The translations under genes were made by a program, and so were the position numbers. Of a stretch of 64,000 bases of DNA, positions 9,266-33,327 are shown in pieces. The notes under the pieces were generated by a model. The model was not told where the DNA came from, ran no database searches, and worked only from the letters and a program-made list of their open reading frames with translations. Source of the stretch: a virus; the IMG/VR virus record IMGVR_UViG_3300045988_159943, positions 32,309-96,308 of that record; one strand, given 5' to 3'. The number at the start of each line of letters is the position of its first letter. Position 1 is the first letter of the stretch.

Positions 9266-9284
9266 TTATTTCACCTCCTAATGA

Positions 9285-10982: not shown

Positions 10983-11003
10983 ATCCTTTTCACTCCTAAA
11001 ACA

Positions 11004-11038: not shown

Positions 11039-11064
11039 TGAACATAACTACTAACAATATTCAA

Positions 11065-15758: not shown

Positions 15759-16281
15759 TCTCTGCCACCCCCTCATCTGTATTTGATGCCATATTTACGT
15801 CTTGAATAACAATATATGCGTTAACAGCGCACTGCACATCATCAACAGCAGGAATAGAACTCGCAGAAAAAGTGATAGTGTTTTCCCCCTGTTCTGTTGC
15901 AGTTACTTTTGCTGCATTATATGCATCTTCACTGTCTGGATCTGGAGATACAGAAATCCATTGTGTATTAACATCTGCATCTACTCCAGGTACATCAGCA
16001 GTTTGGGTGTAATATGTCTCGCCGGTTTCATCATCTATTTGTGCAGTCCAGCCTGGGTCTGTCAATGGTAAAGTAATTTTAAGCATGACAGGGATTCTTG
16101 CAGCCCCAATTGCATTTGGGTCAAGAGGGTCAGTGCCAGTAGACCAATGGTTCTCTGCGTGTTGAGCTGGTGCCACTCCAAGAGCTTCTGGAGAAAGGTC
16201 TGGTTTATTTGTTACACCTAATACATAGTCGAGTGGCAAATCTCCTGCCGTAGTTCTAATCGCAGTTACATAATCTGGCAT
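15748..16281 (-). CDS. hypothetical structural protein (177 aa)
   Basis: ORF in the fibre operon with a D/T/P-rich sequence. Confidence 0.4.
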   Translation of the reverse strand: MPDYVTAIRTTAGDLPLDYVLGVTNKPDLSPEALGVAPAQHAENHWSTGTDPLDPNAIGAARIPVMLKITLPLTDPGWTAQIDDETGETYYTQTADVPGVDADVNTQWISVSPDPDSEDAYNAAKVTATEQGENTITFSASSIPAVDDVQCAVNAYIVIQDVNMASNTDEGVAENAS

Positions 16282-16310
16282 TCACATCACTCTCCTTTTA
16301 TTCATTTTTT

Positions 16311-18290: not shown

Positions 18291-18303
18291 ACTCTACACC
18301 ACC

Positions 18304-18612
18304 TTACGCATCATAGGCAATTAAAATTGCACCATCAACTACTTCAGGCAAATCTGTCGTACTTGTAGAAATCATAATGGCCTGTGGCTCATAGGAATCA
18401 AGCTTGGTTTTATCAGTCGATTCCATTAAACCATTTTCTGTTCCTGTTGCAGCATTCATATTTGAAAGCTGTTCAGCAACATAATCAGTAGTTGCCAAAT
18501 TTGTTGGCTTATTTTTAATATAATCAAAAGCTAATTCATCTGTTTGCTCCCAATCTGCTTGAGATGAGTGAGCATAAACTAAATTACCAAAAATTGATTG
18601 ATTATCTGCCAT
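18304..18612 (-). CDS. hypothetical protein (102 aa)
   Basis: ORF with RBS AAAAGGAGGCATAAAAAATG, just downstream of a terminator. Confidence 0.4.
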   Translation of the reverse strand: MADNQSIFGNLVYAHSSQADWEQTDELAFDYIKNKPTNLATTDYVAEQLSNMNAATGTENGLMESTDKTKLDSYEPQAIMISTSTTDLPEVVDGAILIAYDA

Positions 18613-18625
18613 TTTTTATGCCTCC

Positions 18626-18669
18626 TTTTAAAATAAAAAGAGGGGGCTAAAATACACTAGCCCCGCTCT
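18626..18669 (-). terminator. rho-independent terminator
   Basis: 11-bp stem agagggggcta/tagccccgctct with one bulge and an 8-nt loop. On the minus strand it is followed by CUUUUUAUUUU. Confidence 0.6.
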
Positions 18670-18670
18670 A

Positions 18671-19051
18671 TCAAAAATTAATTAACCACTCAGGAGCCTC
18701 TGGAATAATCTTAGTTTCAGTTACATCAAGCCAGGCTTGATACCATATATTAAGCTCAGCTATTTGAACATCAGATAATCTGTTATACCAAAGGTCTCCA
18801 CGGTTAATATATGGAAAACAAATTTTTTCACGCTGAGAGCGCAAATTAGATAAAACTTTATTATTTTCTAATTCAGCTTGTTTTTCATTGCTTTTAATAA
18901 GCATATTATCATCAGAAAGATAATAGCTCCGATAATTTACCTGAAAATCTTCAATGTCTTCAGGCTCATCGACTACTAAAGAAGGAGATTCAAATCCACC
19001 AATAAGGGCATAGCTATCTACAAACCCTTGTTCATTTAAAATAACCTGCAT
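18671..19051 (-). CDS. hypothetical protein (126 aa)
   Basis: ORF in the fibre operon. Confidence 0.4.
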   Translation of the reverse strand: MQVILNEQGFVDSYALIGGFESPSLVVDEPEDIEDFQVNYRSYYLSDDNMLIKSNEKQAELENNKVLSNLRSQREKICFPYINRGDLWYNRLSDVQIAELNIWYQAWLDVTETKIIPEAPEWLINF

Positions 19052-19064
19052 ATATTGCGCCTCC

Positions 19065-20672
19065 TTAACTTACTCTATAAACATACTTTAATGCACTATT
19101 ATTTGAATCAGAAACCCAGACAATCTTAGCATACACATTATCATCGCTAGTCTTATAATAAAAATAGAAACTGACATAACCAGTTTCATCGGCAATTTGA
19201 AGTTTATATTTAGTTGTATTAGTAGTTAAGAAATAACGAGGAATATAAACGGTAGAATAAGTTCCCGTATCAGTGGCTTGCCCCGCAACTACCCATGCTT
19301 GGCAGCCATATCTACTACCAAGGTTAATCTCTGCATTTAGCGTAGCCGTACCACTCCATGCCAACTCACAACCAGATAATAACCACCATTGACTCCATCC
19401 ATTATCACCAACTGTAGGGTCTGACCCAAGATGGCGAGAATACCATTGGAAGCTGGTAGTGTCTACTGTGCCAACCCTAAAGAACACCTGTCTTACACGA
19501 GTACCGTCAGACATAACAAGCATATGTCCATTTGAACCAACAGGACAATGTAATGCTGCAGTCTCAGAAGAAACATAATAAAGACCACTAGTAGTTATAG
19601 TATTTAGATCAACTGCAGAATAAGTCTTTACTTTATCAATTTTGTCATCCAGTTGATCTTTCAAGGACGTCCAGTTCACTTTGTTTCCCTCGATGGCATA
19701 GTTACCATAAACAATATTATTATATGTAGCTGCACTTGAACCATAAATAATCATCATGCTAACACGGGCAGAATTTAAACCCTTTTGGATAATTGCAACC
19801 CCATTTGTTGTATTACCCCAGTCAGAAATAGTCTGAGTACTATAAGTTGTATTGGCTCCATTAATCCGTCTAGTATCTATAACAATCATACTATTAGCAG
19901 GAATATTCATGGCAATATATTGCATTGTCGTTGGAAAAGTTGTAATGCCTGCATCTGTAAGATTGCTAAAAACATTATGAACATGACTAGAATTTGCTTT
20001 TCCATCCAAAGCGGCGTTAATCACTTTATTTTGCACAGGATTTGTAGAAGTACTGCTAAGCGCAGAATCAATAGTAATTGCCGAAGGAATTGTAGGTTTA
20101 TCAGTCAAATCATTATAAGAACCGCTAAATGTGCTCTTTGCATTCCAAGAAGCCTTCTCTGCATCTGTAACAGTACGATGAGTTGTATCATCAGAAAGGT
20201 CAGCTAGAGTTGTAGTACTTGGCATGGCACCAACTTCACTAGCTGTATATGTGGGCTTAGTAGTAGCCTTTGCCCAGGCAGGAACAGTTGGATCTGTTTC
20301 AGTATAAGATTGCAAAGCGCTATCGGCTTTAGCTAGAGAAGATTGCACGTCAGACGCAAGATCAGACTTGGGGATACCGGTTGAAGGTTTGGAATATTTA
20401 GATTCATATACAGAGTGAGTATGATCTGCTGTTGCAAAATCACTTGCGTGTTTACCATCTACAGTATCTGCATCACCACCATTAGCAGGAAGGGCGGTTG
20501 GTTTATTAGTTAAATCATTATAGCTATGAGTATGACTGGTATCTGATTTACCTGATTGAAGCGTTTCAATATCAGATTCAATATCTTCTAGGTTAATAGT
20601 TAGACATTTTAGCATATTGTCGTCTCGCCAAATATTATTAGTACTATATACAGGATCAAATTCTCCATTCAT
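19065..20672 (-). CDS. tail fibre protein
   Basis: N-terminal motifs SHTHSYNDLTNKPTALPANGGDADTVDGKHASDFATADHTHS and YNDLTDKPTIPS are typical of phage tail-fibre N-termini; the remainder is a beta-rich domain. Confidence 0.55.
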   Translation of the reverse strand: MNGEFDPVYSTNNIWRDDNMLKCLTINLEDIESDIETLQSGKSDTSHTHSYNDLTNKPTALPANGGDADTVDGKHASDFATADHTHSVYESKYSKPSTGIPKSDLASDVQSSLAKADSALQSYTETDPTVPAWAKATTKPTYTASEVGAMPSTTTLADLSDDTTHRTVTDAEKASWNAKSTFSGSYNDLTDKPTIPSAITIDSALSSTSTNPVQNKVINAALDGKANSSHVHNVFSNLTDAGITTFPTTMQYIAMNIPANSMIVIDTRRINGANTTYSTQTISDWGNTTNGVAIIQKGLNSARVSMMIIYGSSAATYNNIVYGNYAIEGNKVNWTSLKDQLDDKIDKVKTYSAVDLNTITTSGLYYVSSETAALHCPVGSNGHMLVMSDGTRVRQVFFRVGTVDTTSFQWYSRHLGSDPTVGDNGWSQWWLLSGCELAWSGTATLNAEINLGSRYGCQAWVVAGQATDTGTYSTVYIPRYFLTTNTTKYKLQIADETGYVSFYFYYKTSDDNVYAKIVWVSDSNNSALKYVYRVS

Positions 20673-20782
20673 ACAAATTCCTCCTTTAAAATAGAAGCTT
20701 TATCATTAGTTTTAATTTTCATTAATTATAATTTTACAGCATATTAAAAATTTATAATCAACATCTTTCTTGCTTACGTCTA

Positions 20783-22270
20783 TTACCAAATTTGTTTTAT
20801 TACACCGCTTATGCTGCTATACCCTATAGTAACGTTTTTAGGAACGCCATTAACTCCAATATAAATACTTGTTACCCTGTGGGGTGTTCCATTAATACCA
20901 ACATACATTGGCTTGATGGCTTCTTCCCAAAGTGCATAATAAGTAATTGTAGAGGTGGAAGTTGAGGCAGCAATAGTTGCCCCGGGGGCTAACGCTGTGG
21001 TGCTAGATGTACTTGTCCCCCAACCCAAAAAATTATAAAATTGCTTTGTTGGCTGAGATGTCGTTAAGGTATAAGCCTCATTATAATATCTACTTGTATT
21101 AGCGATTGACCCTTCTCCGCCATTTAAATTATAAGTAACAGTATAAGAGTTGGGATAATAATTCCTATACACTGTACTTGCTGCAGAAACTGAAGATATT
21201 GTTGTACAACTACTATAATAATAACCAGTATACGAAGAGGTTGTTCCCCAGTCAGAACCCTTAGCAGTGCTTCCAGATGTATAAGTCGCTGTTCCTACGG
21301 TTGTTGTACTTAATAACGTGCCAGAAGAAGAATATTTTCTATCTTTGCAAGTAATAGTATAAGATGGTGGGGTTAACACTATATAAAGTGTTGTACCACT
21401 GACTGCAGTACTTGAGCTATAAGCATGTACATCAATTTCATAACTTGTCCCTGCGGTAACCTCATATGAATAAGAAAAATTATTATCTGTTCCACTATCA
21501 TCATCTTTAGTATAAACAGTTCCACCAGTTAGCGCACTTGATCCATTTCCCGTACTCAAAGAACAACTTCCATTAGTTAACCAACCATATGTATCTATAC
21601 TACCTTCTGTATAAACTTGTAATGTTCCACTAATAGAAGGAGTGAAATTAATATATCCTAGTTGTCCAGCAGATAAAGATAAAGACATAGTAACACTATC
21701 TGTATCGCTTCCCAATGACTTCCAAGACCAAGGAGAAGATGAGCTACTACTTGGTTCGTAGAAGAAAACAACATATGGATTGCTTGCACTATGTGATGAA
21801 CAAGTAGTTCCAGTTCCATCATAACTTGATTGATTAATACAAGCTGTAAAAGAAGTATTATATTTATATCCATTATAAGTATACCCACTCACTGTCGGCC
21901 TTGTGATAGACGATGAAGTAGTGGATGTTGATGAAGTAAGGTATGCTGAATTAGTTTCATCGTAAGCACGATAATAATATGTTGTTGCTGCTGATGTTGT
22001 TGATTGTGTTTTCGCTCCTAACCATGTAACACCAGCATTGTCGCCTGTAGTATTATACCCTACGTTTAAAGTATAAGAAGTTGAAGCAGATAAACCAGTA
22101 ATTTTATGAGTATATGAATTTCCAGACGCAATAGCAGTCCAGTCATCACATACAATAGAACTTGTATCTGAAGTCAAACGACAAAATATTCTAAAATAGT
22201 AAGTTCCAGTTGCAGTGATTGTTACTTCGATGCGATCAGAACCTACATAATTTATCGAATAAGAAGACAT
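20783..22270 (-). CDS. receptor-binding-like protein (Fn3-like N-terminus, Flg_new repeat, C-terminal YxGxNG repeats)
   Basis: YTVTYNLNGGEG...FYNFLGWGTS...ITYYALWEE is a Flg_new repeat. C-terminus PMYVGINGTPHRVTSIYIGVNGVPK. Confidence 0.5.
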   Translation of the reverse strand: MSSYSINYVGSDRIEVTITATGTYYFRIFCRLTSDTSSIVCDDWTAIASGNSYTHKITGLSASTSYTLNVGYNTTGDNAGVTWLGAKTQSTTSAATTYYYRAYDETNSAYLTSSTSTTSSSITRPTVSGYTYNGYKYNTSFTACINQSSYDGTGTTCSSHSASNPYVVFFYEPSSSSSSPWSWKSLGSDTDSVTMSLSLSAGQLGYINFTPSISGTLQVYTEGSIDTYGWLTNGSCSLSTGNGSSALTGGTVYTKDDDSGTDNNFSYSYEVTAGTSYEIDVHAYSSSTAVSGTTLYIVLTPPSYTITCKDRKYSSSGTLLSTTTVGTATYTSGSTAKGSDWGTTSSYTGYYYSSCTTISSVSAASTVYRNYYPNSYTVTYNLNGGEGSIANTSRYYNEAYTLTTSQPTKQFYNFLGWGTSTSSTTALAPGATIAASTSTSTITYYALWEEAIKPMYVGINGTPHRVTSIYIGVNGVPKNVTIGYSSISGVIKQIW

Positions 22271-22283
22271 GCACTACACCACC

Positions 22284-25200
22284 TTACTCTTCATAAATAA
22301 ATAAAATTGTTCCATCTACCAATGATGTTGGAACCGTTGCAGAACTTGACTGGAACGTTATTGTAGTTTTGGGCAAATAACTCTCCAATTCTACCTTGGT
22401 GGCATAGGTTTCTATAATATTATTTCCATCTTCATCTGCAGTTGCCTTTGAAGCTGCCCCATAAAGATCTGCACCCGCAGGCTTATCATGCCCTTCAACA
22501 ATCCACTGGGCACCATCATAAACAACTCTAAATGGGAGCCCGGCACCCAACCAAGATGCAGTATATCCGCTTTGTGAAGAAGTAGCGATAGAAGTTAATC
22601 TACGCTTAATATTCTTCGCTCCAAGTCCATTAACGTCAAGAGTAGGAGATGTGCTTGTACTAACCACATGAGGTATCATAATAAAGCTTACACCAGCAGT
22701 TAATGTAGCAATTCCAGGCACAGTTGCAGTATAAGCTGCGCCATCTCCACCAGTAGTTACAGCATATTGACCGTTTGCGACATCTACCTTATCATTTAGA
22801 GCACTCGTAATCGCACTCTGTGTCATAGTGCCATCAGTGTTTGCCCCAGTTGCACTATAAAGTTTAGTTAAACCAGAGACGCTTGATGTTCCAGTGCTAT
22901 AGGTTGTATCTTGAGCAGGAATACCCAAATTTGTAATATCAGACTTAGTAACTGTAGTTGTGGCGCTTACGTGCCCAGTGTTATCAACAGTAACCTTATA
23001 AAGCCCAGAACTCTTAGGAGTATAGCTTGGATGAGTATATACTGTATCAACTGCAGAAATAGTGATTTTGTCACTATCTGCATCAGCGCTAATTGTGACA
23101 TTATCCCCAGCGGTCATAGTCAGAGCATCAGTTTTGCTATCGGCAGATATAGTTGTACTACCGACAACGATACTAGAAAATGCATTCTGGTTTACTTCTG
23201 CACCTTCAGCGATACTTGCTAATTTGGTCTTTTCTGTAGTCGTGTAGTCGTTAGTGGATAACACCTTGCCGTCAACTTTATCTACTTTGGTACCAATTTG
23301 ATTAGCCACTGTAGTTGCAAAGTTAGGATCATCTCCCAGAGCAGCGGCCAACTCATTTAGAGTATTTAAAGTCTCAGGAGCAGAATCTACAAGACCAGCA
23401 ACTTTATTATTAACATACGTCTCTGTAGCCAAACCATCAATAGAAGGAATTACAGTAGAGGCAGGCAAAGCCCCAACATCAGATGCGCTCAAAGTAATGT
23501 CGGCAGTTAAAGCCTTTCCATTGACTTTACGGCTAGAAGGCACTTTACTGTCAATGTCAGCTTGCACCGTAATAAATTTTGCATCTACAACTTTATTTTG
23601 TACAGGATTGGTACTAGTAGAATTCAAAGCACTATCTACTACGGTTTTATTGGCCCCTGACTCAATACCAGCTAACTTATTCTTCTCATCCGTCGTATAA
23701 TCATTTGAAGATAGACCTTTTCCCGTTTCTTTATTAACTTTAGATTCAAGGTCAGTTGTTGTAGCAAAATTACTATCATTGGTCAAATCACTAATCTTAG
23801 TAGGAACAGTGATGTTTACTTTCTTGTTAGAGTCAACTGTTAAATCTGTACCGTTCTTTTGAATGCCAACAATAACATTAGCCTCTGCGTCAGCAGGAGC
23901 ATGAGCCTGTTGGCTATGAGTGTAAGCTGCGTCATAGTTGGATTTTAAAGCATTAGTTAGGTCATTGGTAGATAAACCTTTACCAGCCTCAATATCCACC
24001 TTGCCGTTAATAGACGCTTGAACGCTATCAAACTTTGCATTAATAATTTTGTTCTGTACTGGATTGGTGCTCGTTGAACTTAGAGCACTATCTACTATAA
24101 CTTTAGCATTATCAACATCTGTTATAGTAGCAAAATTACTATCGTTAGTTAAATCACTTGTTTTAGTTGGGACAGTAATATTAACTTTTCTATTAGAATT
24201 AACAGTTAAATCCGTGCCATTCTTCTGAACACCAACAACTACATTCTTTTCAGCATCTACTGGGGCGTGTGCTTGCTGGCTATGCGTATAAGCAGTGTCA
24301 TAATTTGACTTTAAAGTAGCAGTTAAGTCGTTTGTTGATAAACCTTTTCCATCCACCTTGTCTACTTTACCGTCAAGTGTACTTTGTAATCCATCAACAT
24401 TTGCAACTATGTGATTGTGAGAATCATCATTTACTGAGACATTGCCAGCACTATCAACAGTAATATCTGTGCCAGATTTAACACCACCTAAAACATCAGA
24501 AGTGGCAACTGGCAAAGAATAATTGTTTGCATCAGGTTCGATCCCGGCCAGTTTATTCTTTTCATCAGTAGTATAATCATTGGTAGATAGCCCTTTTCCA
24601 TCGACTTTCTCAACCTTACTGTCAAGTTCTGCAATTGTAATAACACCATCTATTATAGTTGCATCTCCGCCAGTTTTCACTAAACCAAGACTTGCACCCG
24701 CAGCGCCATAAGTTGTATCTTTTGCAGTAATAGTAACTCCATTGTTATCCTCATCTGAGGTTAATGTAATATTATCGCCCGCAATGATTGTAAAAGTATC
24801 GGTCGTATTATCTGCGGTAATAATTTTATCTCCAACGATAACGTTGCTAAAAGCATTTTGATTTGCTTCGCCACCAATTGCAACAAGGCCATCAAGCCTG
24901 GATTTATCAGTAGCGCTCATCAAACCAGCAGAAGTAATAGTAGCTTCAGAGTACGTAGTATCCTGAGTAGGGACTCCAAGAGCAGTGATGTCTGCTTTAG
25001 TTACAGCACTTGCATCAGAAACATGCCCTGTATCATCAACTGTAATTTTATATAACCCATTAGACTTTGTGTCATACATTGGGTGAGTATACACAGTATC
25101 AGTGAATACCGCATCGGCAGGGACATCAGACTCTACAGTATGGTTGTTTACTGTATCAGCATTACCACCATCCGCAGGGAGTGCTGTAGGTTTATTTTTG

Positions 25201-25460
25201 ATATACGCATCAGAAGTTGTGTCAGTTATATTCCAATCTGATTGCACATTTACTTCTGCACCTTCAGCAATGTTATTTAATTTAACTTTATCTTCTGCGC
25301 TCATCAAGCCAGATTCGGTTTCAGTTGCATTGTCCTCAGACCCAGGAATAAGATATAGCTCATCCTCATTAATAAGGGAGTTTTGCTTCATATAATCATA
25401 AACTGTTTGACTTTCAACCTTGTTAATTACTAGATTACTTAAATTCTTTTCAGTAGACAT
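22284..25460 (-). CDS. long tail fibre protein with Phage_fiber_2-type repeats
   Basis: Repeated DKVDGKGLSTNDYTTDEKNKLAGIE, VDSALSSTSTNPVQNKIINAKFD and VPTKTSDLTNDSNFAT motifs. N-terminus KNKPTALPADGGNADTV. Confidence 0.7.
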   Translation of the reverse strand: MSTEKNLSNLVINKVESQTVYDYMKQNSLINEDELYLIPGSEDNATETESGLMSAEDKVKLNNIAEGAEVNVQSDWNITDTTSDAYIKNKPTALPADGGNADTVNNHTVESDVPADAVFTDTVYTHPMYDTKSNGLYKITVDDTGHVSDASAVTKADITALGVPTQDTTYSEATITSAGLMSATDKSRLDGLVAIGGEANQNAFSNVIVGDKIITADNTTDTFTIIAGDNITLTSDEDNNGVTITAKDTTYGAAGASLGLVKTGGDATIIDGVITIAELDSKVEKVDGKGLSTNDYTTDEKNKLAGIEPDANNYSLPVATSDVLGGVKSGTDITVDSAGNVSVNDDSHNHIVANVDGLQSTLDGKVDKVDGKGLSTNDLTATLKSNYDTAYTHSQQAHAPVDAEKNVVVGVQKNGTDLTVNSNRKVNITVPTKTSDLTNDSNFATITDVDNAKVIVDSALSSTSTNPVQNKIINAKFDSVQASINGKVDIEAGKGLSTNDLTNALKSNYDAAYTHSQQAHAPADAEANVIVGIQKNGTDLTVDSNKKVNITVPTKISDLTNDSNFATTTDLESKVNKETGKGLSSNDYTTDEKNKLAGIESGANKTVVDSALNSTSTNPVQNKVVDAKFITVQADIDSKVPSSRKVNGKALTADITLSASDVGALPASTVIPSIDGLATETYVNNKVAGLVDSAPETLNTLNELAAALGDDPNFATTVANQIGTKVDKVDGKVLSTNDYTTTEKTKLASIAEGAEVNQNAFSSIVVGSTTISADSKTDALTMTAGDNVTISADADSDKITISAVDTVYTHPSYTPKSSGLYKVTVDNTGHVSATTTVTKSDITNLGIPAQDTTYSTGTSSVSGLTKLYSATGANTDGTMTQSAITSALNDKVDVANGQYAVTTGGDGAAYTATVPGIATLTAGVSFIMIPHVVSTSTSPTLDVNGLGAKNIKRRLTSIATSSQSGYTASWLGAGLPFRVVYDGAQWIVEGHDKPAGADLYGAASKATADEDGNNIIETYATKVELESYLPKTTITFQSSSATVPTSLVDGTILFIYEE

Positions 25461-25471
25461 TCTATATCACC

Positions 25472-26983
25472 TCAATTCACAGTAAATCTTACATTCGTAA
25501 TAGTAACAGTAATTGGCAACGTACCACCATTAGCACTATAACTAGAAGAAGTATTAAACTGAATACCAGATGCAGTTACATCCATATCGGAATCACCACT
25601 AGTAATATGATACTGCTGATCTGTGCCATAGAAACCAATCTTCGCTGGAGTCTGAGAACCGTCACTGAATGTGATGCTATCAAAATAAATTCTACAAGTA
25701 CTAGATGTAGTAATATTGCCATCATTAATTAGAATGCCTTGAGATATAGCGGTGAAATTCAATTCTAAGTCATGAGTAGTATCATTAACAGAGAAAGTAA
25801 CGCCAGTTTCCTTATTGGGATTTATACTTACCATGGAGGAAGTTAGATATACATATCCGTCATCTTCACTACTACCACCACCAGAACCGCCAGCTTCAGG
25901 GGCTGTATACAAACGATACTGAGCAATAGGCAGATATCTTGTTACATAATCAGGGTCATCAGCACCCTTAAACTCAATAGCACGAATATCTACATGGTCT
26001 TCGTATACGTCTATAATAGCACCCTCTGATTGACCGGGCATAGAAACTCTAGTGCTACTTAGACTAGAATTGCAAACAGATGAGTCGATAGGACTTGCAC
26101 AAGATGGAATGTGAACACACCAAGCAGTAGTTCTTCCTACATTAGAAGTGGGCCATACATTTGCTTGAGGTTCACCAGACTGTAAATACCACTTCCAGTG
26201 AGAGTGACCACTAAACCAAATAGCTCTTGGATAATTGCCACGCAATGTTTTTAAATTATTTAATTGAGTTCCAGAAAGCCAGTTACCAGAAGGATAAATG
26301 CTTTGGAAATTACCAGCGGCATCAGGGAAGAACATATGAGTGAAAATGAAACATCTATCATTTTTATATGCTTCAAGTTTATTTCCAAGCCAAGTAATGT
26401 CTGCATCTAGATAAGTACTTGACGTAAACTCATACCGTCTCATTCCTAAGAATAGAAAGTGGTCGGTTACAGTTGTACCCTCAGAAGTATTATGAGTTTT
26501 AGTTACTTCATATGAATAAACAGCATCAGAAGTAAATAAATCACTAATACCCGCATAAGATTTAAAGGTGTTAATATCTATATCACTACTTTGAGGGCAG
26601 TCGTGGTTTCCAGTAGTTGGATATACAGGAGTACTATTGCTAATCGCCGCCAAATTGGCCTGATATAGAGTCATTTCTGTAGTTAAATCACCACTACTAT
26701 AACTATACTGAGTTAAATCACCTGTAATACAAGTAAATTCAATGTCTTCTCTTTGGTTAAAGAAATTTAAAGCATTTCTTAAATCGTTCTGATTTTCGGA
26801 ACTCTGGTCGCTTTCATTGTGAACGTCGGAAATAATACCAAAACGATAAAGCCTCTCGCCGTAAGCTGGTTTAAAATCTCCAAGGGGAATAGAGCCTACT
26901 CTTTCTCCACTTGAATTGTAAACACCAATTTGAGATGCGGCATAAGGGGCAACATTTGTTTTTATAAAATCATCATAAGCCAT
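25472..26983 (-). CDS. calcineurin-like metallophosphoesterase with C-terminal beta domain, encoded inside the fibre operon
   Basis: All five metallophosphoesterase motifs are present: GIISDVHNE, CITGDLT, TGNHD, FIFTHMFF and FSGHSHWKW. Confidence 0.7.
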   Translation of the reverse strand: MAYDDFIKTNVAPYAASQIGVYNSSGERVGSIPLGDFKPAYGERLYRFGIISDVHNESDQSSENQNDLRNALNFFNQREDIEFTCITGDLTQYSYSSGDLTTEMTLYQANLAAISNSTPVYPTTGNHDCPQSSDIDINTFKSYAGISDLFTSDAVYSYEVTKTHNTSEGTTVTDHFLFLGMRRYEFTSSTYLDADITWLGNKLEAYKNDRCFIFTHMFFPDAAGNFQSIYPSGNWLSGTQLNNLKTLRGNYPRAIWFSGHSHWKWYLQSGEPQANVWPTSNVGRTTAWCVHIPSCASPIDSSVCNSSLSSTRVSMPGQSEGAIIDVYEDHVDIRAIEFKGADDPDYVTRYLPIAQYRLYTAPEAGGSGGGSSEDDGYVYLTSSMVSINPNKETGVTFSVNDTTHDLELNFTAISQGILINDGNITTSSTCRIYFDSITFSDGSQTPAKIGFYGTDQQYHITSGDSDMDVTASGIQFNTSSSYSANGGTLPITVTITNVRFTVN

Positions 26984-26996
26984 AACTTATACCTCC

Positions 26997-28811
26997 TTAT
27001 TTAGTAATGGTTCCGATTGAATCCCAACCCTCAAGTTTCGTCCCATCTGCATCTTCGTAATATAATGTATAATCACCAGATGCCAAACTTGCGTCGGTCA
27101 AAGAAATTGTATTATCACTAGCAATCGTTCCTACCTCTTCACCAGTAGTGATTGTACCACCGTTATATCCATTAAATTCAGTAGAACCAATTACATCCCA
27201 ATCGGTAAGTTTTTGTTTATTCTCATCTTCGTAATAGAAATAATATGTCTCGTTTGGAATAGAAGTGTCGGTAATTGTAATAGCATAATCAGAAGTAACT
27301 TCACCAATTACATCACTGATTATATGCCCTTTATAAATTAACTTTTCATTCTCTGCATGAGCATACTCAAACTCTACCCACACACCATTAATCTTCTTAT
27401 AAATTGTTAAAACTTTTTTCCAATCTCCATCTACTTTTACATAGTGGGCAGGTGGTTCTGCAAAAATAATTACTACTGTTGCATCTGCATCAACAGATGG
27501 AATGGTATAACTATAATATTCTTCTCCCACTCCCGCCGCTTCATAATTCATAGTGATTTCATTTAAAACTAACCAGTTTGAAATAGTAGAGTTAGCATAA
27601 ATTCTTACGTATTTAATATTATTCGCATTAGTAATAGATGAGAATGTTGTCGTCTGACTATCTGAGAAAGTTCCTATATCTGTCCAACTCGAATTATCTG
27701 CAGATACTTGTAATACATTACAAGACTGAGGATAGTCCGTACTGTTAGAAGAATACGTTGAAAAAGAACTTAAGTTAACAAAATCACTAAAAGTAATTAA
27801 AATATACTTTCCACTAGCTTGCGCTTGATTTGACCAAAAATAGGTAGAATCATCACCATCATAAGCATTTGACAAAGCATATGTAGAATAAGTACCATAG
27901 TTAGTACTAACCGCATATGTCGGCAAAGGAGCAGGAGCGTTCTTGGTAATAGGAGTCACTTCAACTCCATTTACTGTCATTGACGAGAAAGTATAATCAG
28001 TTTCACCATTAAAAGTAACTTCGCAATCATCCCCGTCACTAACAGTCATAGAAGCAGTTGTTGGGGTTCTTAATGTACCACCAGTAATTGAAGTTGAAAC
28101 AGTATGCGTTATTAGTTGATTAAAAACGGCACTAACAGCTTTATCTTCGTCAACAACAAAAGATGTACCAGATAATACATTCCCATTTACATAAATATTT
28201 TCAAGCTCATACCCATCAGATGGAGTAGCGGTTGCAGTAACAGTTGTACCTTCAAGCACTTGTCCACTTTGAGATAGGCTAATAGTACCGCCAGTAGATT
28301 GAGTAACTGAAACAGTATGATATGTTGGTACAGTATAATCTACTAAAATTTCAGCACCATAAATATATACATAACCTGTCGTATAACGACTAGCTCTTCT
28401 ACAGTTAATACGAATACCAAAATTACTTCCATAACCTACAATAGTATCCCAATCTGCTGTCACACCAGTAAAAGTAAGCGTTTGAGCAGAAGTTGTAATA
28501 GCAGAACAAGAAGAAGTAATAGTTGTAGTATTATTTACTAGCATTGGAGCATAAGAAGAGCTGGTGCTAACACCACTTTCATATGCTTTTAATTTTACTG
28601 TAAAAGAATTTACAATTGCATTACTTGGGATATCATCAAAATTAAATCCTTTAAGATAAATGTAATATGAGGTCGTACTAGTTCTTGAGTTAGTTACAGT
28701 AGCATAAGTTGTGCTGTCTGTATTATCATACATGTTTGAAGCATTAGAAACGCTTAAATATGAAGTATTACTTAATGAATAAGCACTAGGGATTAATCTA
28801 ATTGTTGCCAT
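26997..28811 (-). CDS. structural protein with discoidin (F5/8 type C, CBM32-like) carbohydrate-binding domain and C-terminal YxGxNGxW-like repeats
   Basis: YALSNAYDGDDSTYFWS...GKYILITFSDFVNL...NVLQVSADNSSWTDIGTF...IKYVRIYANS..SNWLVLNEITM fits the discoidin fold. C-terminus HYVKVDGDWKKVLTIYKKINGVWVEFEY. Confidence 0.6.
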   Translation of the reverse strand: MATIRLIPSAYSLSNTSYLSVSNASNMYDNTDSTTYATVTNSRTSTTSYYIYLKGFNFDDIPSNAIVNSFTVKLKAYESGVSTSSSYAPMLVNNTTTITSSCSAITTSAQTLTFTGVTADWDTIVGYGSNFGIRINCRRASRYTTGYVYIYGAEILVDYTVPTYHTVSVTQSTGGTISLSQSGQVLEGTTVTATATPSDGYELENIYVNGNVLSGTSFVVDEDKAVSAVFNQLITHTVSTSITGGTLRTPTTASMTVSDGDDCEVTFNGETDYTFSSMTVNGVEVTPITKNAPAPLPTYAVSTNYGTYSTYALSNAYDGDDSTYFWSNQAQASGKYILITFSDFVNLSSFSTYSSNSTDYPQSCNVLQVSADNSSWTDIGTFSDSQTTTFSSITNANNIKYVRIYANSTISNWLVLNEITMNYEAAGVGEEYYSYTIPSVDADATVVIIFAEPPAHYVKVDGDWKKVLTIYKKINGVWVEFEYAHAENEKLIYKGHIISDVIGEVTSDYAITITDTSIPNETYYFYYEDENKQKLTDWDVIGSTEFNGYNGGTITTGEEVGTIASDNTISLTDASLASGDYTLYYEDADGTKLEGWDSIGTITK

Positions 28812-28824
28812 TTACAATCCCTCC

Positions 28825-31428
28825 TTATCTAACAACCTTAAAGTACAAATCTCCATCCTCACCAGTTGTTGATTCTGGAGTAGTAGTTCCAGTGTAATAA
28901 TTTTGAACTACTAAAGTGCCAGTTACTTTAGCTCCATTGACATATGCAGTTTTCCCACTGACAATATCTGCATCAGTGGCAGTAGCATCAGAGGTATCTA
29001 TGCCACTGCCACCTTGATGAGTACCAGTCACACCAAAAATGCTAACTCCAGATGCAATATTTTCTGGGACAAGATTAGCGTCACCCTGGATAGTTTGAGT
29101 GCCAGACAGATATTGGCCTGCGTCAATTGTTTGGTCAGTTGTAGTTGGAGTATAAGTGGCTGCGTCTTTGGATGGCATGGTACCGGTAATTTTTAATCCG
29201 CTTTCAGACGTAAAAGTTTTACCGCTTATTACATCAACAGTAGTAGCATCACCAAAATTTGAAGCATTTGTATATACCTTATTGTTGCCTGTAGAACGAA
29301 TAACACAGTCATTTACAACAGGAATACTTATTGCGATTCTTGGAGTACCCAGTGGCAACGTAACTGCTTGATATCCATAACTAGGTTCGCCAACATTAAC
29401 ACCTAAAGAATTTTGTAATGTACCTTCAACTTTTATACCATTAACATACGCATTTTTGCTTATTACAATGTCACTTGCTGTAGCATTTGCGTCACTAGTA
29501 TCAACATAATTTTCAGGAATTTCAGCTACTAAAATGTCTCCTGTTACATAAGTCCCTGTAGAAACGGCAGTTTGAGAAGAAGTGCTAGGTGTAATAGTAG
29601 TTGCTTCTTTAGTAGTCAATTGCAAAGTCTTAGTTGCAGAAGTGTCTAAATAACCAGAAGTAGCTACACCCACTGTCACAACACCAGTACTTGTATTAAT
29701 AGTAGGATTACTTAAAGCGCCAGTAGGCATTGCAGATACTTCAATATTCCCTGTCACGTAAGTTCCAGAAGATACAACAGTTTGAGATGATGTTGAAGGA
29801 GTTACAGTCTTAGCTCCCTGTGTAGGAACCCCGCTACCAACATAAGTTGAAGGGATTGCAGAGATTGTCTGAGCGCCATCTAAATATTGACCAGCAGAAA
29901 TTACCTGTTCAGATTCAGTAGGGGTTATAATTGCCGCAGACTTACGAGTTACATCACTACCCACATAGTCAGATGGAATAGCAGAGATTGTTTGCACACC
30001 AGTTAAATACTGATTAGCGGCAATAGTCTGTTCTGATTCGGATGGAATAATCGTAGCAGCTTCTTTACGGGTTACACCACTTCCTACATAGGTTGAGGAA
30101 ATAGCAGCAATCGTCTGGTCTCCGTCAAGATACTGCCCTGCACTAATAATTTGTGCATTTTCTGTAGGTGTATATGTCTCTGCTGATTTATGAGCAATTC
30201 CAGACCCAATATAAGTTGAAGAAATTGCTCCTACTGTCACGCTAGACAAGCCATCATAACCTGCATCGGGGCCAACAACCTGTTCAGATTCAGTGGGAGT
30301 TACAGACTTTTCCTGAGTATCAAAAGTATCTCCAACAACACTTACACTTACAGAAGAAAAGTACTTTCCATCGCTAGGAGTATAAGTTCCATTTGCGGTA
30401 ATACTCTTTGTCTCAGTAGGTACAGCAGAAACAATAACATCTCCAGTTGCATATGTACCAAAAGAAATAGCGGTTTGGCTATTAGAATTAGGAGTAATAG
30501 TTGTTGCTCCCTTAGTTGGAACTGCGCTACCTACATATGTAGAAGAAATAGGATTCACTGTAACGGTAGATAATCCATCATAACCGTTATCAGGAGAAAC
30601 AGTTTGAGTAGATTCTGTAGGAGTTACAGTTTTTGTCTGAGTATTAAATGTCTCTGCGGGGACATTAACAGTCACAGACGAAAAATACTTGCCACTTGTA
30701 GGATTATATGTTCCGTTTGAAGTAACAGATTTAGTTTCTGTTTGAATAGCTTCCACATCTACCTGGGTTAAATATTTCCCAGAAGTTGGAGTTATTGTTT
30801 GTGCAGAAGTTGTGGGAGTCACAGACTTAGTTTCTGTTTGAATTGCATTTACAGTTACATCACTCAATGCATCATACCCGTCATCCGCTGTTACTGTTTG
30901 AGCTGAAGTAGATGGAGAAACAGTTTTAGATTGATAAGTAGGAACATCCCCGGCAACAGCAACTTCAACAGAAGAAAAATATTTACCACTTGAGGGAGAA
31001 TATGTTCCATTCGCTGTAATTGTCTTTATTTCTGTAGGAACTGCAGATACAGTAATTTTCCCGGTGGTATAAACGCCAGAGTCAACTGCTGTCTGGCTTG
31101 CAGACGAAGGAGTAATTGTCGTGGCTGCTTTGGTAGTTAGCTGTTGAGTAACAGTTTTAGTTGTTGCACTTGATTGATAGCCTTTTGGGTTAGACACACT
31201 AGCTGTGATTAATCCACTATCAGATACTGAAATTGTAGGAGTTGGAGCACTAACTGTAGCAATTGTACCCGTATACTTTGTCCCTTTACTATATGCAGTA
31301 ACACCTGAAAGCATTTGTGCACCAGAAGTTAATGTAGCATCACTAGTATCAGTGCCACTTGTGGTTCCACTTCCATCAAATGCAACTGTGACTCTAGTAA
31401 CTTTATCATTTCCTAAATAAAGTGGCAT
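28825..31428 (-). CDS. highly repetitive fibre protein (867 aa, S/T/G-rich)
   Basis: Many ~30-aa repeats (ISSTYVGSGV..K.A.TI.P.ESEQ.I.A.QYL.G.QTISAIPS). RBS GGAGGTGTAAATATG. Confidence 0.5.
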   Translation of the reverse strand: MPLYLGNDKVTRVTVAFDGSGTTSGTDTSDATLTSGAQMLSGVTAYSKGTKYTGTIATVSAPTPTISVSDSGLITASVSNPKGYQSSATTKTVTQQLTTKAATTITPSSASQTAVDSGVYTTGKITVSAVPTEIKTITANGTYSPSSGKYFSSVEVAVAGDVPTYQSKTVSPSTSAQTVTADDGYDALSDVTVNAIQTETKSVTPTTSAQTITPTSGKYLTQVDVEAIQTETKSVTSNGTYNPTSGKYFSSVTVNVPAETFNTQTKTVTPTESTQTVSPDNGYDGLSTVTVNPISSTYVGSAVPTKGATTITPNSNSQTAISFGTYATGDVIVSAVPTETKSITANGTYTPSDGKYFSSVSVSVVGDTFDTQEKSVTPTESEQVVGPDAGYDGLSSVTVGAISSTYIGSGIAHKSAETYTPTENAQIISAGQYLDGDQTIAAISSTYVGSGVTRKEAATIIPSESEQTIAANQYLTGVQTISAIPSDYVGSDVTRKSAAIITPTESEQVISAGQYLDGAQTISAIPSTYVGSGVPTQGAKTVTPSTSSQTVVSSGTYVTGNIEVSAMPTGALSNPTINTSTGVVTVGVATSGYLDTSATKTLQLTTKEATTITPSTSSQTAVSTGTYVTGDILVAEIPENYVDTSDANATASDIVISKNAYVNGIKVEGTLQNSLGVNVGEPSYGYQAVTLPLGTPRIAISIPVVNDCVIRSTGNNKVYTNASNFGDATTVDVISGKTFTSESGLKITGTMPSKDAATYTPTTTDQTIDAGQYLSGTQTIQGDANLVPENIASGVSIFGVTGTHQGGSGIDTSDATATDADIVSGKTAYVNGAKVTGTLVVQNYYTGTTTPESTTGEDGDLYFKVVR

Positions 31429-31857: not shown

Positions 31858-33327
31858 TCATTCAAACACACGCCATGGTTCTTCTTTTTTTATTCGGTTG
31901 TATTCTTGTCGAGTTATATGTTTAAAATGAAACCCATGTGTAGAAGCATTAACCCCACACAAATTATTGATAATACATTTTTTGTTTATAAAAATTCCAA
32001 ATAATGATTCACTATAATTAGAACATATCGTTGAGTATGGAAATACATATCCATTATCTAAACATAGCACTGGCATTTTCATTTTTGGCTCATATTCAAC
32101 CCATCCAAGATTATGCCCTTTACTTAAATACGCACTTACAGTACAAGAAGCTTTATTCATTATTCTAGCAATTTCACTTGCGTTATGAATTCCACCATTC
32201 CATAAGTTACATGCTATTTTTATTAAATTGCTACATGCATATTTATCGCATTCATTCCAATCAATATCATTTTCAGAAAAATTAAAAATATTTGGAAGTA
32301 TGCTAGACATTATTGAGTTTTTTATAAAAATTTTATCAGATTTTCTACAATCAATAACAACATAATTCTCTGGTTTAATACCGTTTTGAATTGCCAAATT
32401 ATATTTAAATAAGTCATTTGCTTGTTCTTCTACTAAAGTTCTTCCTCCGCAATATTCAAAACCACCATCTTCATAATGTTGGGCACCATGAGCTTCAATG
32501 ATTATATCTGTATTATAAATCAAATAAAAATCATATATCCTTCTTGGTCTTGTCCCATTTATTTTTTTAGACCATTCAAATGTTTTCTCGGGTTCAAAAG
32601 AAAAATCATTTTTATTCTGTATTTGTTTTAAAAAACTATATATAAATTTATTAGCATAGCTTATATTGTCTCCACACTTAGAACATGAATACCTATCTCC
32701 ATTACGAAAGGCATTGAATATTTCAGTATATTTTTCATATCCACAATCAGGGCACTTAAACCATGCTTTTTTACCACTTCTAATACTATATTTTAATGTG
32801 TCATCTAAATTCTTAAAGTATTTAACAAATTTTGGATGTGTAGTTGCTATATCATTATATCCACTAAGAGTGATTCTTCCTACACATACTGGACAATTTT
32901 TATGATTTTTAAACTCTTGTTCTGTTTTTATCCCACAATAACCATCTATCAAACATTTATAACCATATGTCTTTCTATTTTTATCATCTCTATACCTATT
33001 AGTAATTAACAAATGGTCATTAATTATGTCGCCAATATTATATATAAATTTAGCATATTGTTTCGCTTTTAATATGTTTCCAAGACGCACATTTATAATT
33101 GACCCTGTATTAACTAAATAATGAGACACATATCCATTTATATCAATATATACTTTTTGGTTGTTATAGTACTCAGATATTAAAATTGTAGAACGAATGT
33201 CATTATATTGAAACTCAATTGTTTTTCCAATTGATTTTTCCCACCAAACTCTTTTTCCTCTCATTGAAAGATTACTTAAATCAACCCATCCATAATCACT
33301 ATAATTTATCATTTGTTTATTTTTCAT
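31858..33327 (-). CDS. homing-endonuclease-like protein (zinc ribbons, Vsr/DUF559-like nuclease core, IENR/NUMOD-like DNA-binding repeats)
   Basis: CPVCVGR / CPDCGYEK / CSKCGD zinc ribbons. IIIEAHGAQHYEDGG...LVEEQANDLFKYNLAIQNGI is the nuclease core. C-terminal VLCLDNGYVFPYSTICSNYSESLFG...HGFHFKHITRQEY resembles intron-endonuclease DNA-binding repeats. Confidence 0.5.
   Translation of the reverse strand: MKNKQMINYSDYGWVDLSNLSMRGKRVWWEKSIGKTIEFQYNDIRSTILISEYYNNQKVYIDINGYVSHYLVNTGSIINVRLGNILKAKQYAKFIYNIGDIINDHLLITNRYRDDKNRKTYGYKCLIDGYCGIKTEQEFKNHKNCPVCVGRITLSGYNDIATTHPKFVKYFKNLDDTLKYSIRSGKKAWFKCPDCGYEKYTEIFNAFRNGDRYSCSKCGDNISYANKFIYSFLKQIQNKNDFSFEPEKTFEWSKKINGTRPRRIYDFYLIYNTDIIIEAHGAQHYEDGGFEYCGGRTLVEEQANDLFKYNLAIQNGIKPENYVVIDCRKSDKIFIKNSIMSSILPNIFNFSENDIDWNECDKYACSNLIKIACNLWNGGIHNASEIARIMNKASCTVSAYLSKGHNLGWVEYEPKMKMPVLCLDNGYVFPYSTICSNYSESLFGIFINKKCIINNLCGVNASTHGFHFKHITRQEYNRIKKEEPWRVFE

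What the first reader, a model, noticed from the sequence alone, without database searches (positions are those of the whole stretch)
25472..28811. Metallophosphoesterase and discoidin-domain protein embedded among tail fibres: candidate phosphodiester-cleaving receptor-degrading module
ORF 25472..26983 has all five calcineurin-like phosphoesterase motifs fused to beta domains. The adjacent ORF 26997..28811 has an F5/8 type C (discoidin, CBM-like) carbohydrate-binding domain (about nt 27550-27950). Their location between fibre genes suggests they are virion-associated. Such enzymes could hydrolyse teichoic-acid or capsular phosphodiester linkages during adsorption, an activity more often attributed to glycerophosphodiesterase-type enzymes.
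Basis: partly seen in the sequence, partly recalled or inferred. Interest (0 to 1): 0.6.

Follow-up and report, generated by a model that had tools for sequence, protein, structure and literature searches.

The report
Phage tail-cluster metallophosphoesterase with glycan-binding partner
An uncultured gut phage of about 160 kb carries, among its tail-fibre genes, a conserved two-gene cassette (a sugar-binding adaptor and an intact two-metal phosphoesterase) copied from enzymes that gut bacteria export, and it probably cuts phosphate-linked host surface polymers, though no one has tested this.

Summary
Both ORFs exist at the stated coordinates, on the minus strand. ORF 25472..26983 (503 aa) is a calcineurin-like metallophosphoesterase (Pfam E=1.5e-12). 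All metal and catalytic residues are invariant across 114 divergent relatives. The model is confident (pLDDT 92.6), and its nearest solved folds are GpdQ glycerophosphodiesterase, purple acid phosphatases and acid sphingomyelinase. ORF 26997..28811 (604 aa) has a CBM32/discoidin-like domain at aa ~297-450, supported by fold rather than by Pfam thresholds.

New findings:
- The two genes form a conserved pair in related 160-200 kb phages.
- A ~45-aa "TYTLKYED" module ends the upstream protein. In many homologues it is fused directly to the enzyme, which suggests the two proteins form a complex.
- Bacterial homologues are exported: 61 of 80 genome loci have a signal-peptide-like or lipoprotein N-terminus, against 0 of 60 viral loci.
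- In at least four unrelated phage lineages the enzyme lies next to tail genes.
- No cultured phage has it.

The most likely role is a virion-borne phosphoesterase acting on a host envelope polymer. Virion association, substrate and host remain inferred. This would be a new variant of a known kind: tail-associated phosphodiesterases described so far are GDPD or beta-helix enzymes.

The parts
25472..26983 (-). Metallophosphoesterase gene (503 aa)
   Evidence: ORF. PF00149 E=1.5e-12. 555 close and 756 clustered homologues. Model pLDDT 92.6.
26849..26983 (-). N-terminal segment, aa 1-45 (beta hairpin; conserved N10, P13, 'YDDFI' start). Candidate docking surface for the partner's C-terminal module.
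   Evidence: Conserved from residue 2-3 in all homologues. In fused homologues it directly follows the TYTLKYED module. The docking role is inferred.
25901..26848 (-). Catalytic metallophosphoesterase module, aa 46-361, with D53, H55, D89, N126, H127, H216, H260, H262 and the family-specific Q268 and H291
   Evidence: Invariant columns. Foldseek to GpdQ, PAP, ASMase and Rv0805, E 1e-10 to 1e-8. Profile hit to GpdQ over aa 53-252, E=6e-8.
25856..25900 (-). Disordered Gly/Ser-rich linker, aa ~362-376. This is the domain-swap boundary.
   Evidence: pLDDT below 50 at aa 364-374. Homologues share aa 1-361 but differ beyond that point.
25475..25855 (-). C-terminal ~130-aa beta-sandwich ('VGFY...QF(N/Q)TSSS' domain), undescribed. 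Present in 1-3 tandem copies in relatives. Candidate binding module.
   Evidence: Model. jackhmmer finds 102 copies in family proteins, some in tandem. No Pfam hit and no PDB sequence relative.
26992..26996 (-). Shine-Dalgarno GGAGG, directly after the upstream TAA stop and 8 nt before the ATG of the enzyme gene
   Evidence: Sequence read directly. The enzyme is translated as a separate polypeptide, tightly coupled to the upstream gene.
26997..28811 (-). Partner gene (604 aa): a modular glycan-binding adaptor
   Evidence: ORF. 2709 homologues on contigs of 160-205 kb. Model pLDDT 75.
28332..28811 (-). N-terminal beta-sandwich domain, aa 1-160 (jelly-roll/CBM-like). Highly conserved in the family.
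   Evidence: pLDDT 76-91. Many invariant residues. 57% identity to the 531-aa class.
27927..28325 (-). Two Ig-like / InlB B-repeat-type domains, aa ~163-295. The first is absent in the 531-aa class.
   Evidence: PF18998 Flg_new_2 at aa 165-232, E=3.3e-10. pLDDT about 90. The 531-aa homologues skip aa ~211-235.
27462..27923 (-). CBM32 / F5/8 type C (discoidin)-like domain, aa ~297-450
   Evidence: Sub-threshold Pfam hits. PF00754 in homologues. Foldseek to CBM32, GnT-IVa lectin domain and galactose oxidase N-domain. phmmer to 7vmt, E=0.005.
27000..27320 (-). Two copies of the ~45-aa 'TYTLKYED' module, aa 498-546 and 556-604. The last copy ends the protein just before the enzyme gene.
   Evidence: Shared by otherwise unrelated upstream genes in L001, L004 and L006. 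Fused N-terminally to the enzyme module in 25 representative proteins and 23 genome loci; split onto the upstream ORF in 10 genome loci and 11 viral loci.
28825..31428 (-). Upstream 867-aa repeat protein; tentatively part of the same assembly
   Evidence: Its C-terminal region hits phrog_38337 and phrog_13589. The alternative partners of the enzyme in L001, L004 and L006 hit the same PHROGs. This association is inferred only.

Best explanation
The two ORFs are a conserved, co-translated cassette of an uncultured gut myophage of about 160 kb.

The 604-aa protein is a string of beta domains: an N-terminal jelly-roll, Ig-like repeats, a CBM32/discoidin lectin domain and two 'TYTLKYED' modules. 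The 503-aa protein is an active binuclear metallophosphoesterase followed by a novel beta-sandwich.

The enzyme family comes from exported phosphoesterases of gut bacteria: Alistipes surface lipoproteins and secreted Clostridia proteins. The phage copies have lost the export signal and have been placed in virion tail modules.

Proposed mechanism:
1. The enzyme docks non-covalently on the C-terminal TYTLKYED module of its partner. In other homologues this module is covalently fused to the enzyme.
2. The pair rides on the tail.
3. The CBM32 domain and the C-terminal beta-sandwich hold it on a host surface glycopolymer.
4. The two-metal centre hydrolyses phosphoester bonds in that polymer, most likely phosphodiester bonds in a teichoic-acid-like or sugar-phosphate polymer. 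This lets the tail reach the wall.

Shown here: gene structure, intact active site, fold, pair conservation, the module split/fusion pattern, the export-signal contrast, and tail-module placement in other phages.

Inferred: complex formation, virion incorporation, substrate class and host (probably a Gram-positive Clostridia member).
For: - Active site: the catalytic and metal ligands are invariant in 114 relatives. The model is confident.
- Fold: the nearest folds are GpdQ glycerophosphodiesterase, purple acid phosphatases, Rv0805 and acid sphingomyelinase. Mre11 ranks lower, and PhoD is also hit. The family profile aligns to GpdQ across motifs I-V. PhoD is a metallophosphoesterase-like endo-teichoicase (PMC7086022).
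- Export contrast: 61 of 80 genome loci have signal-peptide-like or lipobox N-termini, against 0 of 60 viral loci.
- Pair conservation: the 13-nt junction is conserved in L007, L009, L090 and L091, while the flanking fibre genes are swapped.
- Split/fused TYTLKYED module.
- Own ribosome-binding site.
- Tail context in independent phages: L099 has Tal, then the partner, then the enzyme. In L112 the enzyme lies between two tail proteins. In L113 a tail protein lies downstream. In L106 the enzyme lies before the endolysin.
- The window cluster runs from terminase, portal and fibres to lysis genes on one strand.
- CBM32 fold of the partner.
- Precedent: tail-borne phosphodiesterases that degrade teichoic acid are Ld17 GDPD, phi29 gp12 and enterococcal tail GDPDs (PMC10194240, PMC6116005).
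Against: - There is no proteomic or structural evidence of virion incorporation, and no cultured phage carries the family.
- Neither protein shares motifs with the window's bona fide fibre proteins or with tail PHROGs.
- In L004 the pair sits in a small opposite-strand island among methyltransferase genes. In L096 the enzyme follows the portal gene.
- Similarity to GpdQ and PhoD is only about 12-14% identity, so diesterase against monoesterase or nuclease cannot be decided.
- The host is not identified. The closest bacterial homologues (38-42% identity) are from Gram-negative Alistipes, which lacks teichoic acids.
- The signal-peptide count uses a crude hydrophobicity rule.
Confidence: 0.45

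Rival explanations
1. The enzyme is a soluble late protein, not a virion part. It is made with the structural and lysis genes and released at lysis. There it strips phosphate-linked wall polymers, either to help release or to destroy receptors on debris so that progeny are not trapped.
For: - No export signal, late-operon position and lysis genes downstream on the same strand.
- In L106 the enzyme is directly upstream of the endolysin.
- The pair has no fibre-like motifs.
Against: - The pair lies 11 kb from the amidase, with six fibre genes in between.
- In L099, L112 and L113 the enzyme lies between tail genes.
- The conserved docking module and the lectin-rich partner fit an assembled structure better than a free enzyme.
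Confidence: 0.2
2. The enzyme is virion-borne or released, but it acts on nucleic acid or nucleotides (for example extracellular DNA in mucus or biofilm) rather than on a wall glycopolymer.
For: - The metallophosphoesterase superfamily includes the Mre11/SbcD nucleases. The profile's top PDB sequence hits over motifs I-III are Mre11.
- Mre11 also appears among the fold matches.
Against: - Mre11 matches cover only motifs I-III and rank below GpdQ, PAP and ASMase by fold (TM-score 0.43 against 0.6-0.69).
- No SbcC/Rad50 partner is present.
- The partner and the C-terminal domains are lectin-like or beta-sandwich, not DNA-binding.
Confidence: 0.1
3. The enzyme works inside the cell, as a DNA-metabolism phosphoesterase or as a counter-defence phosphodiesterase that degrades cyclic-nucleotide signals. 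Its place among the fibre genes would then be incidental.
For: Metallophosphoesterases described in cultured phages are linked to DNA metabolism or predicted anti-signalling roles (PMC7824862; PMC10638138 and PMC12282133). In L004 the neighbours are methyltransferases.
Against: - Bacterial family members are exported proteins, so the ancestral substrate is extracytoplasmic.
- The pairing with a CBM32 protein is conserved.
- Tail-module placement recurs in unrelated phages.
Confidence: 0.07
4. The pair is an environment-adhesion or nutrient accessory. The CBM32 domain would bind mucin or dietary glycans (a BAM-like role). Alternatively the enzyme would serve as an auxiliary phosphate-scavenging gene, as suggested by bacterial homologues that lie next to phosphate-uptake genes.
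For: - CBM32 modules typically bind Gal, GalNAc or LacNAc (matches).
- Bacterial homologues lie next to pstSCAB-phoU (L082), a PHO4 transporter (L012) and GDPD genes (L014, L023).
Against: - The phosphate-gene association holds in only 4 of 80 loci.
- A phage enzyme without an export signal cannot feed phosphate uptake in a living host cell.
- The variable C-terminal domains and swapped neighbouring fibres look like host-range evolution.
Confidence: 0.1

Closest known systems
GpdQ, the promiscuous glycerophosphodiesterase of Enterobacter aerogenes (PDB 2zo9, 3d03, 2dxl)
   Same: Same superfamily and fold, with the same DxH / GD / GNH(D/E) / H / GHxH ligand set. It is the best structural match (E=1.5e-10, TM-score 0.67-0.69) and the only solved protein aligned by profile across all motifs. 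It cleaves phosphodiesters.
   Different: - Only about 14% identity.
- GpdQ is a cytoplasmic enzyme of 274 aa without the N-terminal hairpin, the extra invariant Q268 and H291, the C-terminal beta-sandwich or a lectin partner.
- Substrate cannot be transferred at this distance.
Tail-associated glycerophosphodiesterases (GDPD, PF03009) of Lactobacillus phage Ld17 and of enterococcal and staphylococcal phages, and the phi29 gp12 teichoic-acid hydrolase
   Same: The proposed role is the same: a virion-borne enzyme in the tail module that cuts phosphodiester-linked wall polymers during adsorption (PMC10194240, PMC6116005).
   Different: - The folds are unrelated: GDPD is a TIM barrel and gp12 is a beta-helix.
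- The window enzyme has no PF03009 hit.
- The enterococcal tail-lysin survey lists no metallophosphoesterase.
Bacillus subtilis PhoD, an endo-acting teichoicase (PDB 2yeq)
   Same: An exported metallophosphoesterase-like enzyme that cleaves wall teichoic acid (PMC7086022). It is a fold match (E=2e-5). Like some bacterial relatives of the window enzyme, it is tied to phosphate scavenging.
   Different: - A distant match (12% identity, TM-score 0.37-0.38).
- PhoD is Tat-exported and has a different metal site.
- It is not phage-encoded.
Exported metallophosphoesterases of gut bacteria: Alistipes/Rikenellaceae lipoproteins of about 870 aa and Clostridia secreted proteins of about 450 aa (uncharacterised)
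   Same: These are true family members. The Alistipes proteins are 38-42% identical over aa 3-495, with the same order of TYTLKYED module, enzyme and beta-sandwich.
   Different: - They carry signal peptides or lipoboxes and sit in cellular loci.
- The phage version lacks the signal, is split into two genes and sits in a tail cluster.
Phage SbcD/Mre11-type and other DNA-metabolism metallophosphoesterases
   Same: Same superfamily. This is the usual annotation for phage metallophosphoesterases.
   Different: - No SbcC partner, and a different genomic module.
- Lower structural similarity.
- The relatives of the window enzyme are exported proteins.
CBM32 / F5/8 type C lectin modules (C. perfringens GH31/GH84C CBM32, GnT-IVa lectin domain)
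   Same: Same fold and the 'DG..T.W' signature. 17-26% identity, TM-score 0.52-0.64.
   Different: - Below the Pfam cut-offs in this protein.
- The loop region aa 310-333 is modelled poorly.
- The ligand is unknown.

Membership tests
Calcineurin-like metallophosphoesterase superfamily (PF00149) | Match to the family HMM above the curated threshold | tested here: met
   48.8 bits against a cut-off of 21.5, E=1.5e-12, aa 47-263.
Calcineurin-like metallophosphoesterase superfamily (PF00149) | Five motifs that supply the dinuclear metal ligands and the catalytic His: DxH, GD, GNH(D/E), H, GHxH | tested here: met
   D53/H55, D89, N126/H127, H216 and H260/H262 are present and invariant or at least 99% conserved in 114 relatives.
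Calcineurin-like metallophosphoesterase superfamily (PF00149) | Four-layer alpha/beta-beta/alpha sandwich fold | tested here: met
   AlphaFold model pLDDT 92.6. 80 PDB matches with E<=1e-3, all metallophosphoesterases.
Calcineurin-like metallophosphoesterase superfamily (PF00149) | Metal-dependent phosphoester hydrolysis | not testable with these tools
   Needs a recombinant enzyme assay.
GpdQ-type glycerophosphodiesterase | Close sequence relationship that allows transfer of substrate specificity | tested here: not met
   About 14% identity. Profile E=6e-8 only.
GDPD tail-associated glycerophosphodiesterase (PF03009) | GDPD TIM-barrel domain | tested here: not met
   No PF03009 hit in either ORF. 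The fold is a metallophosphoesterase.
Mre11/SbcD nuclease | Full-length similarity including the capping domain, and an adjacent SbcC/Rad50 ATPase gene | tested here: not met
   Matches cover motifs I-III only. TM-score is about 0.43. The neighbours are fibre genes.
F5/8 type C (discoidin) / CBM32 | Match to the Pfam discoidin-type models above threshold | tested here: inconclusive
   The window protein gives PF22633 at 19.8 bits (cut-off 27.8) and PF23524 at 40.1 bits (cut-off 42.9). Many homologues of 72-85% identity carry precomputed PF00754 hits.
F5/8 type C (discoidin) / CBM32 | Beta-sandwich jelly-roll fold of CBM32 | tested here: met
   Foldseek probability 1.0 to 4lpl, 4lks, 2j1a, 7vmt, 7xtl and the galactose oxidase N-domain, TM-score 0.52-0.64.
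F5/8 type C (discoidin) / CBM32 | Carbohydrate binding | not testable with these tools
   Needs a glycan array or cell-binding assay.
Phage tail fibre / receptor-binding protein | Gene lies within the tail morphogenesis module | tested here: met
   Window: between the fibre genes 22284..25460 and 28825..31428. In other phages it lies next to Tal or other tail proteins.
Phage tail fibre / receptor-binding protein | Homology to known tail-fibre or tail-spike families, or shared fibre motifs | tested here: not met
   In PHROGs the enzyme hits only phrog_1649 'metallo-phosphoesterase, other', and the 604-aa protein hits nothing. No BLAST similarity to the other fibre ORFs of the window.
Phage tail fibre / receptor-binding protein | Physical presence in the virion | not testable with these tools
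   No cultured relative exists.

The most novel reading that the evidence does not exclude
This is the first example of a widespread, so far undescribed class of virion-borne metallophosphoesterase 'depolymerases'. Phages would have captured them from exported gut-bacterial enzymes and mounted them on the tail through a dedicated ~45-aa TYTLKYED docking module that can be either fused or split between two genes. Together with CBM32 and a new beta-sandwich domain, they would cleave phosphodiester-linked envelope glycopolymers of uncultured gut Firmicutes.
Probability: 0.35. Interest if true: 0.65.

Novelty: new variant of a known kind. Interest (0 to 1): 0.5.

Why it matters
Tail-borne enzymes decide which envelope polymers a phage can cross, and they are sought as tools against Gram-positive walls and biofilms. 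Only GDPD-type and beta-helix enzymes are documented for phosphodiester-linked polymers.

A metallophosphoesterase-type enzyme would add a new enzyme class for adsorption. This one is found in hundreds of protein clusters across uncultured gut phages from 40 kb to over 300 kb. It would also come with a ready-made lectin partner and a portable docking module.

The lectin and beta-sandwich domains could serve as probes to find the unknown hosts and receptors of an abundant gut phage lineage of about 160 kb. The exported bacterial relatives are themselves uncharacterised. They may be teichoicase-like or phosphoglycan-degrading enzymes of Alistipes and Clostridia.

Tried and rejected
- **Cultured phages.** megablast and tblastn of both proteins, and of two divergent family members, found no family member. 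The only hit was a remote CpdA-like gene. The terminase is at most 26% identical to Bacillus phage terminases, so no characterised relative can be used.
- **Extension domains.** Pfam and PHROGs scans of the N- and C-terminal extensions of long homologues found nothing beyond Metallophos.
- **C-terminal beta-sandwich.** A PDB profile search returned no hit.
- **Promoters and terminators.** A scan of the fibre cluster gave counts equal to shuffled sequence, so it gives no operon boundaries.
- **Fusion of the two ORFs by frameshift or read-through.** Rejected. The enzyme gene has its own GGAGG and ATG after a TAA stop, and the spacing varies among relatives.
- **Systematic link of bacterial homologues to phosphate-uptake genes.** Present in only 4 of 80 loci, so it is kept as a hint only.
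- **Region 1..9285 as non-coding or recoded.** Rejected. It is one giant minus-strand ORF that runs off the window.
- **Literature.** Searches for a tail- or virion-associated metallophosphoesterase returned nothing relevant.
- **Host assignment.** Unresolved. The hints conflict: a Lachnospiraceae bin, CW_7, CHAP and Dockerin domains on one side, and Alistipes-like closest bacterial homologues on the other.


Full report
**Observation**

Both ORFs exist with exactly the stated ends, on the minus strand. The window is a phage late region transcribed leftward. Its genes are:
- terminase, 56671..58731
- portal, 55102..56655
- a 2367-aa protein, 37711..44814
- a run of fibre-type genes, 31428..14451
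- Amidase_2, 13008..13808
- CHAP plus PG_binding_1, 11065..11814
- RuvC, 10461..11057

The genes in the fibre run are separated by 11-13 nt.

**The enzyme (25472..26983, 503 aa)**

- Family: it matches Pfam Metallophos at E=1.5e-12, well above threshold.
- Motifs: they are D53-x-H55, G88-D89, G125-N126-H127-D, H216 and G259-H260-S-H262.
- Conservation: in 114 relatives of 25-60% identity, all these residues are invariant or at least 99% conserved, as are N10, Q268 and H291. The catalytic centre is therefore under selection.
- Model: with a 72-sequence alignment, the AlphaFold model has pLDDT 92.6. It shows an N-terminal hairpin segment, the phosphoesterase core and cap (to aa ~361), a disordered Gly/Ser linker (aa 364-374) and a C-terminal beta-sandwich.
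- Fold matches: Foldseek against the PDB ranks GpdQ glycerophosphodiesterase first (E=1.5e-10, TM-score 0.67-0.69). Purple acid phosphatases, acid sphingomyelinase/SMPDL3A and Rv0805 follow. Mre11 and PhoD rank lower.
- Profile matches: the family profile aligns to GpdQ over aa 53-252 (E=6e-8) but to Mre11 only over motifs I-III.
- Limit: identity is about 14%, so the closest characterised enzyme is a diesterase, but substrate specificity cannot be transferred.

**The partner (26997..28811, 604 aa)**

- Pfam: it gives Flg_new_2 (aa 165-232) and sub-threshold MGAT4A_C and F5_F8_type_C_2 hits at aa 301-418.
- Homologues: many carry PF00754.
- Model: pLDDT is 75, with the C-terminal 150 aa poorly modelled. 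It matches CBM32 modules, the GnT-IVa lectin domain and the galactose oxidase N-domain (probability 1.0, TM-score 0.52-0.64).
- The discoidin/CBM32 call is therefore right, at nt ~27462..27923.

**The two genes are a unit**

- The pair recurs with a 13-nt junction and the same order in relatives with 74-76% identical proteins on contigs of 197 kb and 26 kb (L007, L009).
- It also recurs in a close relative (L090, L091), where the fibre genes on both sides have been exchanged.
- In other lineages (L001, L004, L006) the gene upstream of the enzyme is different. Even so, it ends with the same ~45-aa motif as the 604-aa protein (56-68% identity over aa ~556-604).
- This 'TYTLKYED' module occurs twice at the C-terminus of the 604-aa protein.
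- In 25 representative homologues the module sits inside the enzyme protein itself, ending a few residues before the conserved 'YDDFI' start of the enzyme module.
- Across fetched loci it is fused in 23 genome loci and 3 viral loci. It is split onto the preceding ORF in 10 genome loci and 11 viral loci.
- In the window the junction reads TAA-GGAGG-8 nt-ATG. The enzyme is therefore a separate polypeptide, not a frameshift product.
- A module that is fused in some genomes and split exactly at the domain border in others is classic evidence that the two proteins work together physically. The contact itself is inferred.

**Origin and site of action**

- The family has 756 clusters at 50% identity.
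- In a species-level genome collection, the closest non-phage members are Alistipes/Rikenellaceae proteins of about 870 aa (38-42% identity over aa 3-495). They have lipoprotein signal peptides.
- More distant members are Clostridia proteins of about 450 aa with signal peptides.
- By a simple hydrophobicity rule, 61 of 80 genome loci have an export signal, against 0 of 60 IMG/VR viral loci.
- A few bacterial members lie next to phosphate-acquisition genes: pstSCAB-phoU in L082, PHO4 in L012, and GDPD in L014 and L023. This is 4 of 80 loci and is a hint only.
- The ancestral enzyme therefore works outside the cytoplasm. A phage copy without a signal can reach such a substrate only on the virion or after lysis.

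**Placement in other phages**

- L099 (41 kb): the order is a 1214-aa Tal-type tail protein, a 367-aa partner with the module, then the enzyme.
- L112 (40 kb): the enzyme lies between two strong tail-protein matches.
- L113: the next gene resembles Lactobacillus phage tail proteins.
- L106: the enzyme precedes the endolysin.
- L096: it follows the portal gene.
- L006: the fibre cluster also carries GDSL-lipase and Y_phosphatase3 proteins and an Amidase_3-CW_7 endolysin.

These placements support a structural, tail-linked role better than the window alone does.

**Mechanism and rivals**

Best model, about 0.45: a virion-borne complex. The lectin partner and the C-terminal beta-sandwich position the dinuclear centre on a phosphate-linked host envelope polymer. 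This parallels the GDPD of phage Ld17 and gp12 of phi29 and the metallophosphoesterase-like teichoicase PhoD.

Rivals:
- a soluble late enzyme released at lysis, 0.2
- a nuclease or nucleotide target, 0.1
- an adhesion or phosphate accessory, 0.1
- an intracellular role, 0.07

Points against the main model:
- There are no proteomics data.
- Neither protein has homology to known fibre families.
- Placement is odd in L004 and L096.
- The host is unknown.

**Novelty**

- No cultured phage carries the family.
- Metallophosphoesterases described in cultured phages are tied to DNA metabolism or predicted anti-signalling roles.
- A survey of enterococcal tail lysins lists GDPD but no metallophosphoesterase.
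- Literature searches found no report of a tail-associated metallophosphoesterase.
- I file this as a new variant of a known kind (a tail-associated envelope-degrading enzyme), pending experiment.

Noticed in passing
window 1..9265, minus strand: One uninterrupted reading frame of more than 3088 codons runs off the left end of the window. It is not listed by the ORF listing for that reason. It encodes a giant protein downstream of the lysis and RuvC genes.
   Followed up: partly
L010:8001-9509; L092:6001-7506; L098:6001-7482: Relatives of the enzyme gene contain in-frame stop codons. L010 (73% identity; a 154-kb contig in a Lachnospiraceae bin) has 7 TAG codons, six of them at positions where the window protein has Gln. 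L092 has 1 TAG. L098 has 8 TGA. Related phages therefore use recoded stop codons, while the window uses the standard code.
   Followed up: partly
L090:13834-16017 and 16583-17716: A close relative has the same 2367-aa protein length and a 97% identical enzyme. It carries Dockerin_1 domains in fibre-cluster genes that replace the window's fibres. This may point to a host bearing a cellulosome or amylosome.
   Followed up: no
L006:13670-15958 and 16145-17983: The fibre cluster of a relative with a 79% identical enzyme also encodes a 762-aa Lipase_GDSL_2 protein with tail-fibre PHROG hits, and a 612-aa Y_phosphatase3 protein. This lineage seems to arm several tail proteins with enzymes, including a second phosphatase type.
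   Followed up: partly
window 25475..25855 (aa 377-503 of the enzyme); P0153, P0160: The C-terminal ~130-aa beta-sandwich (motifs 'SQGF', 'VGFY', 'QF(N/Q)TSSS') has no Pfam or PDB sequence match. It occurs in up to three tandem copies after the enzyme in relatives. It appears to be an undescribed domain family.
   Followed up: partly
window 31858..33327, minus strand: A 489-aa ORF with zinc-ribbon or treble-clef hits and a strong phrog_4538 match (unknown function) interrupts the fibre cluster. It lies in the lowest-GC stretch of the region (0.30 at 32001-34000), so it may be a mobile insertion.
   Followed up: no
window 16311..18290, 20783..22270 and 27321..27461 (C-terminal parts): Several proteins of the cluster carry repeats of the type 'Y(V/Y)G(V/I)NG(V)xK' near the C-terminus. 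In the 604-aa protein the repeat is 'YVKVDGDWKKV...KINGVWVEF'. Its function is unknown (BLAST link between two of them).
   Followed up: no
window 37711..44814, minus strand: A 2367-aa protein with a C-terminal DUF6273 and matches to phrog_14959 (unknown function) precedes the fibre genes. It shares a short fibre motif with ORF 22284..25460.
   Followed up: no
L014:9470-10534; L012:1750-4002; L082:10676-16903: Exported bacterial homologues of the enzyme sometimes sit beside a GDPD gene, a PHO4 phosphate transporter or a pst-phoU-kinase locus. This hints that the cellular enzymes scavenge phosphate from phosphodiester polymers, but it holds in only 4 of 80 loci.
   Followed up: yes
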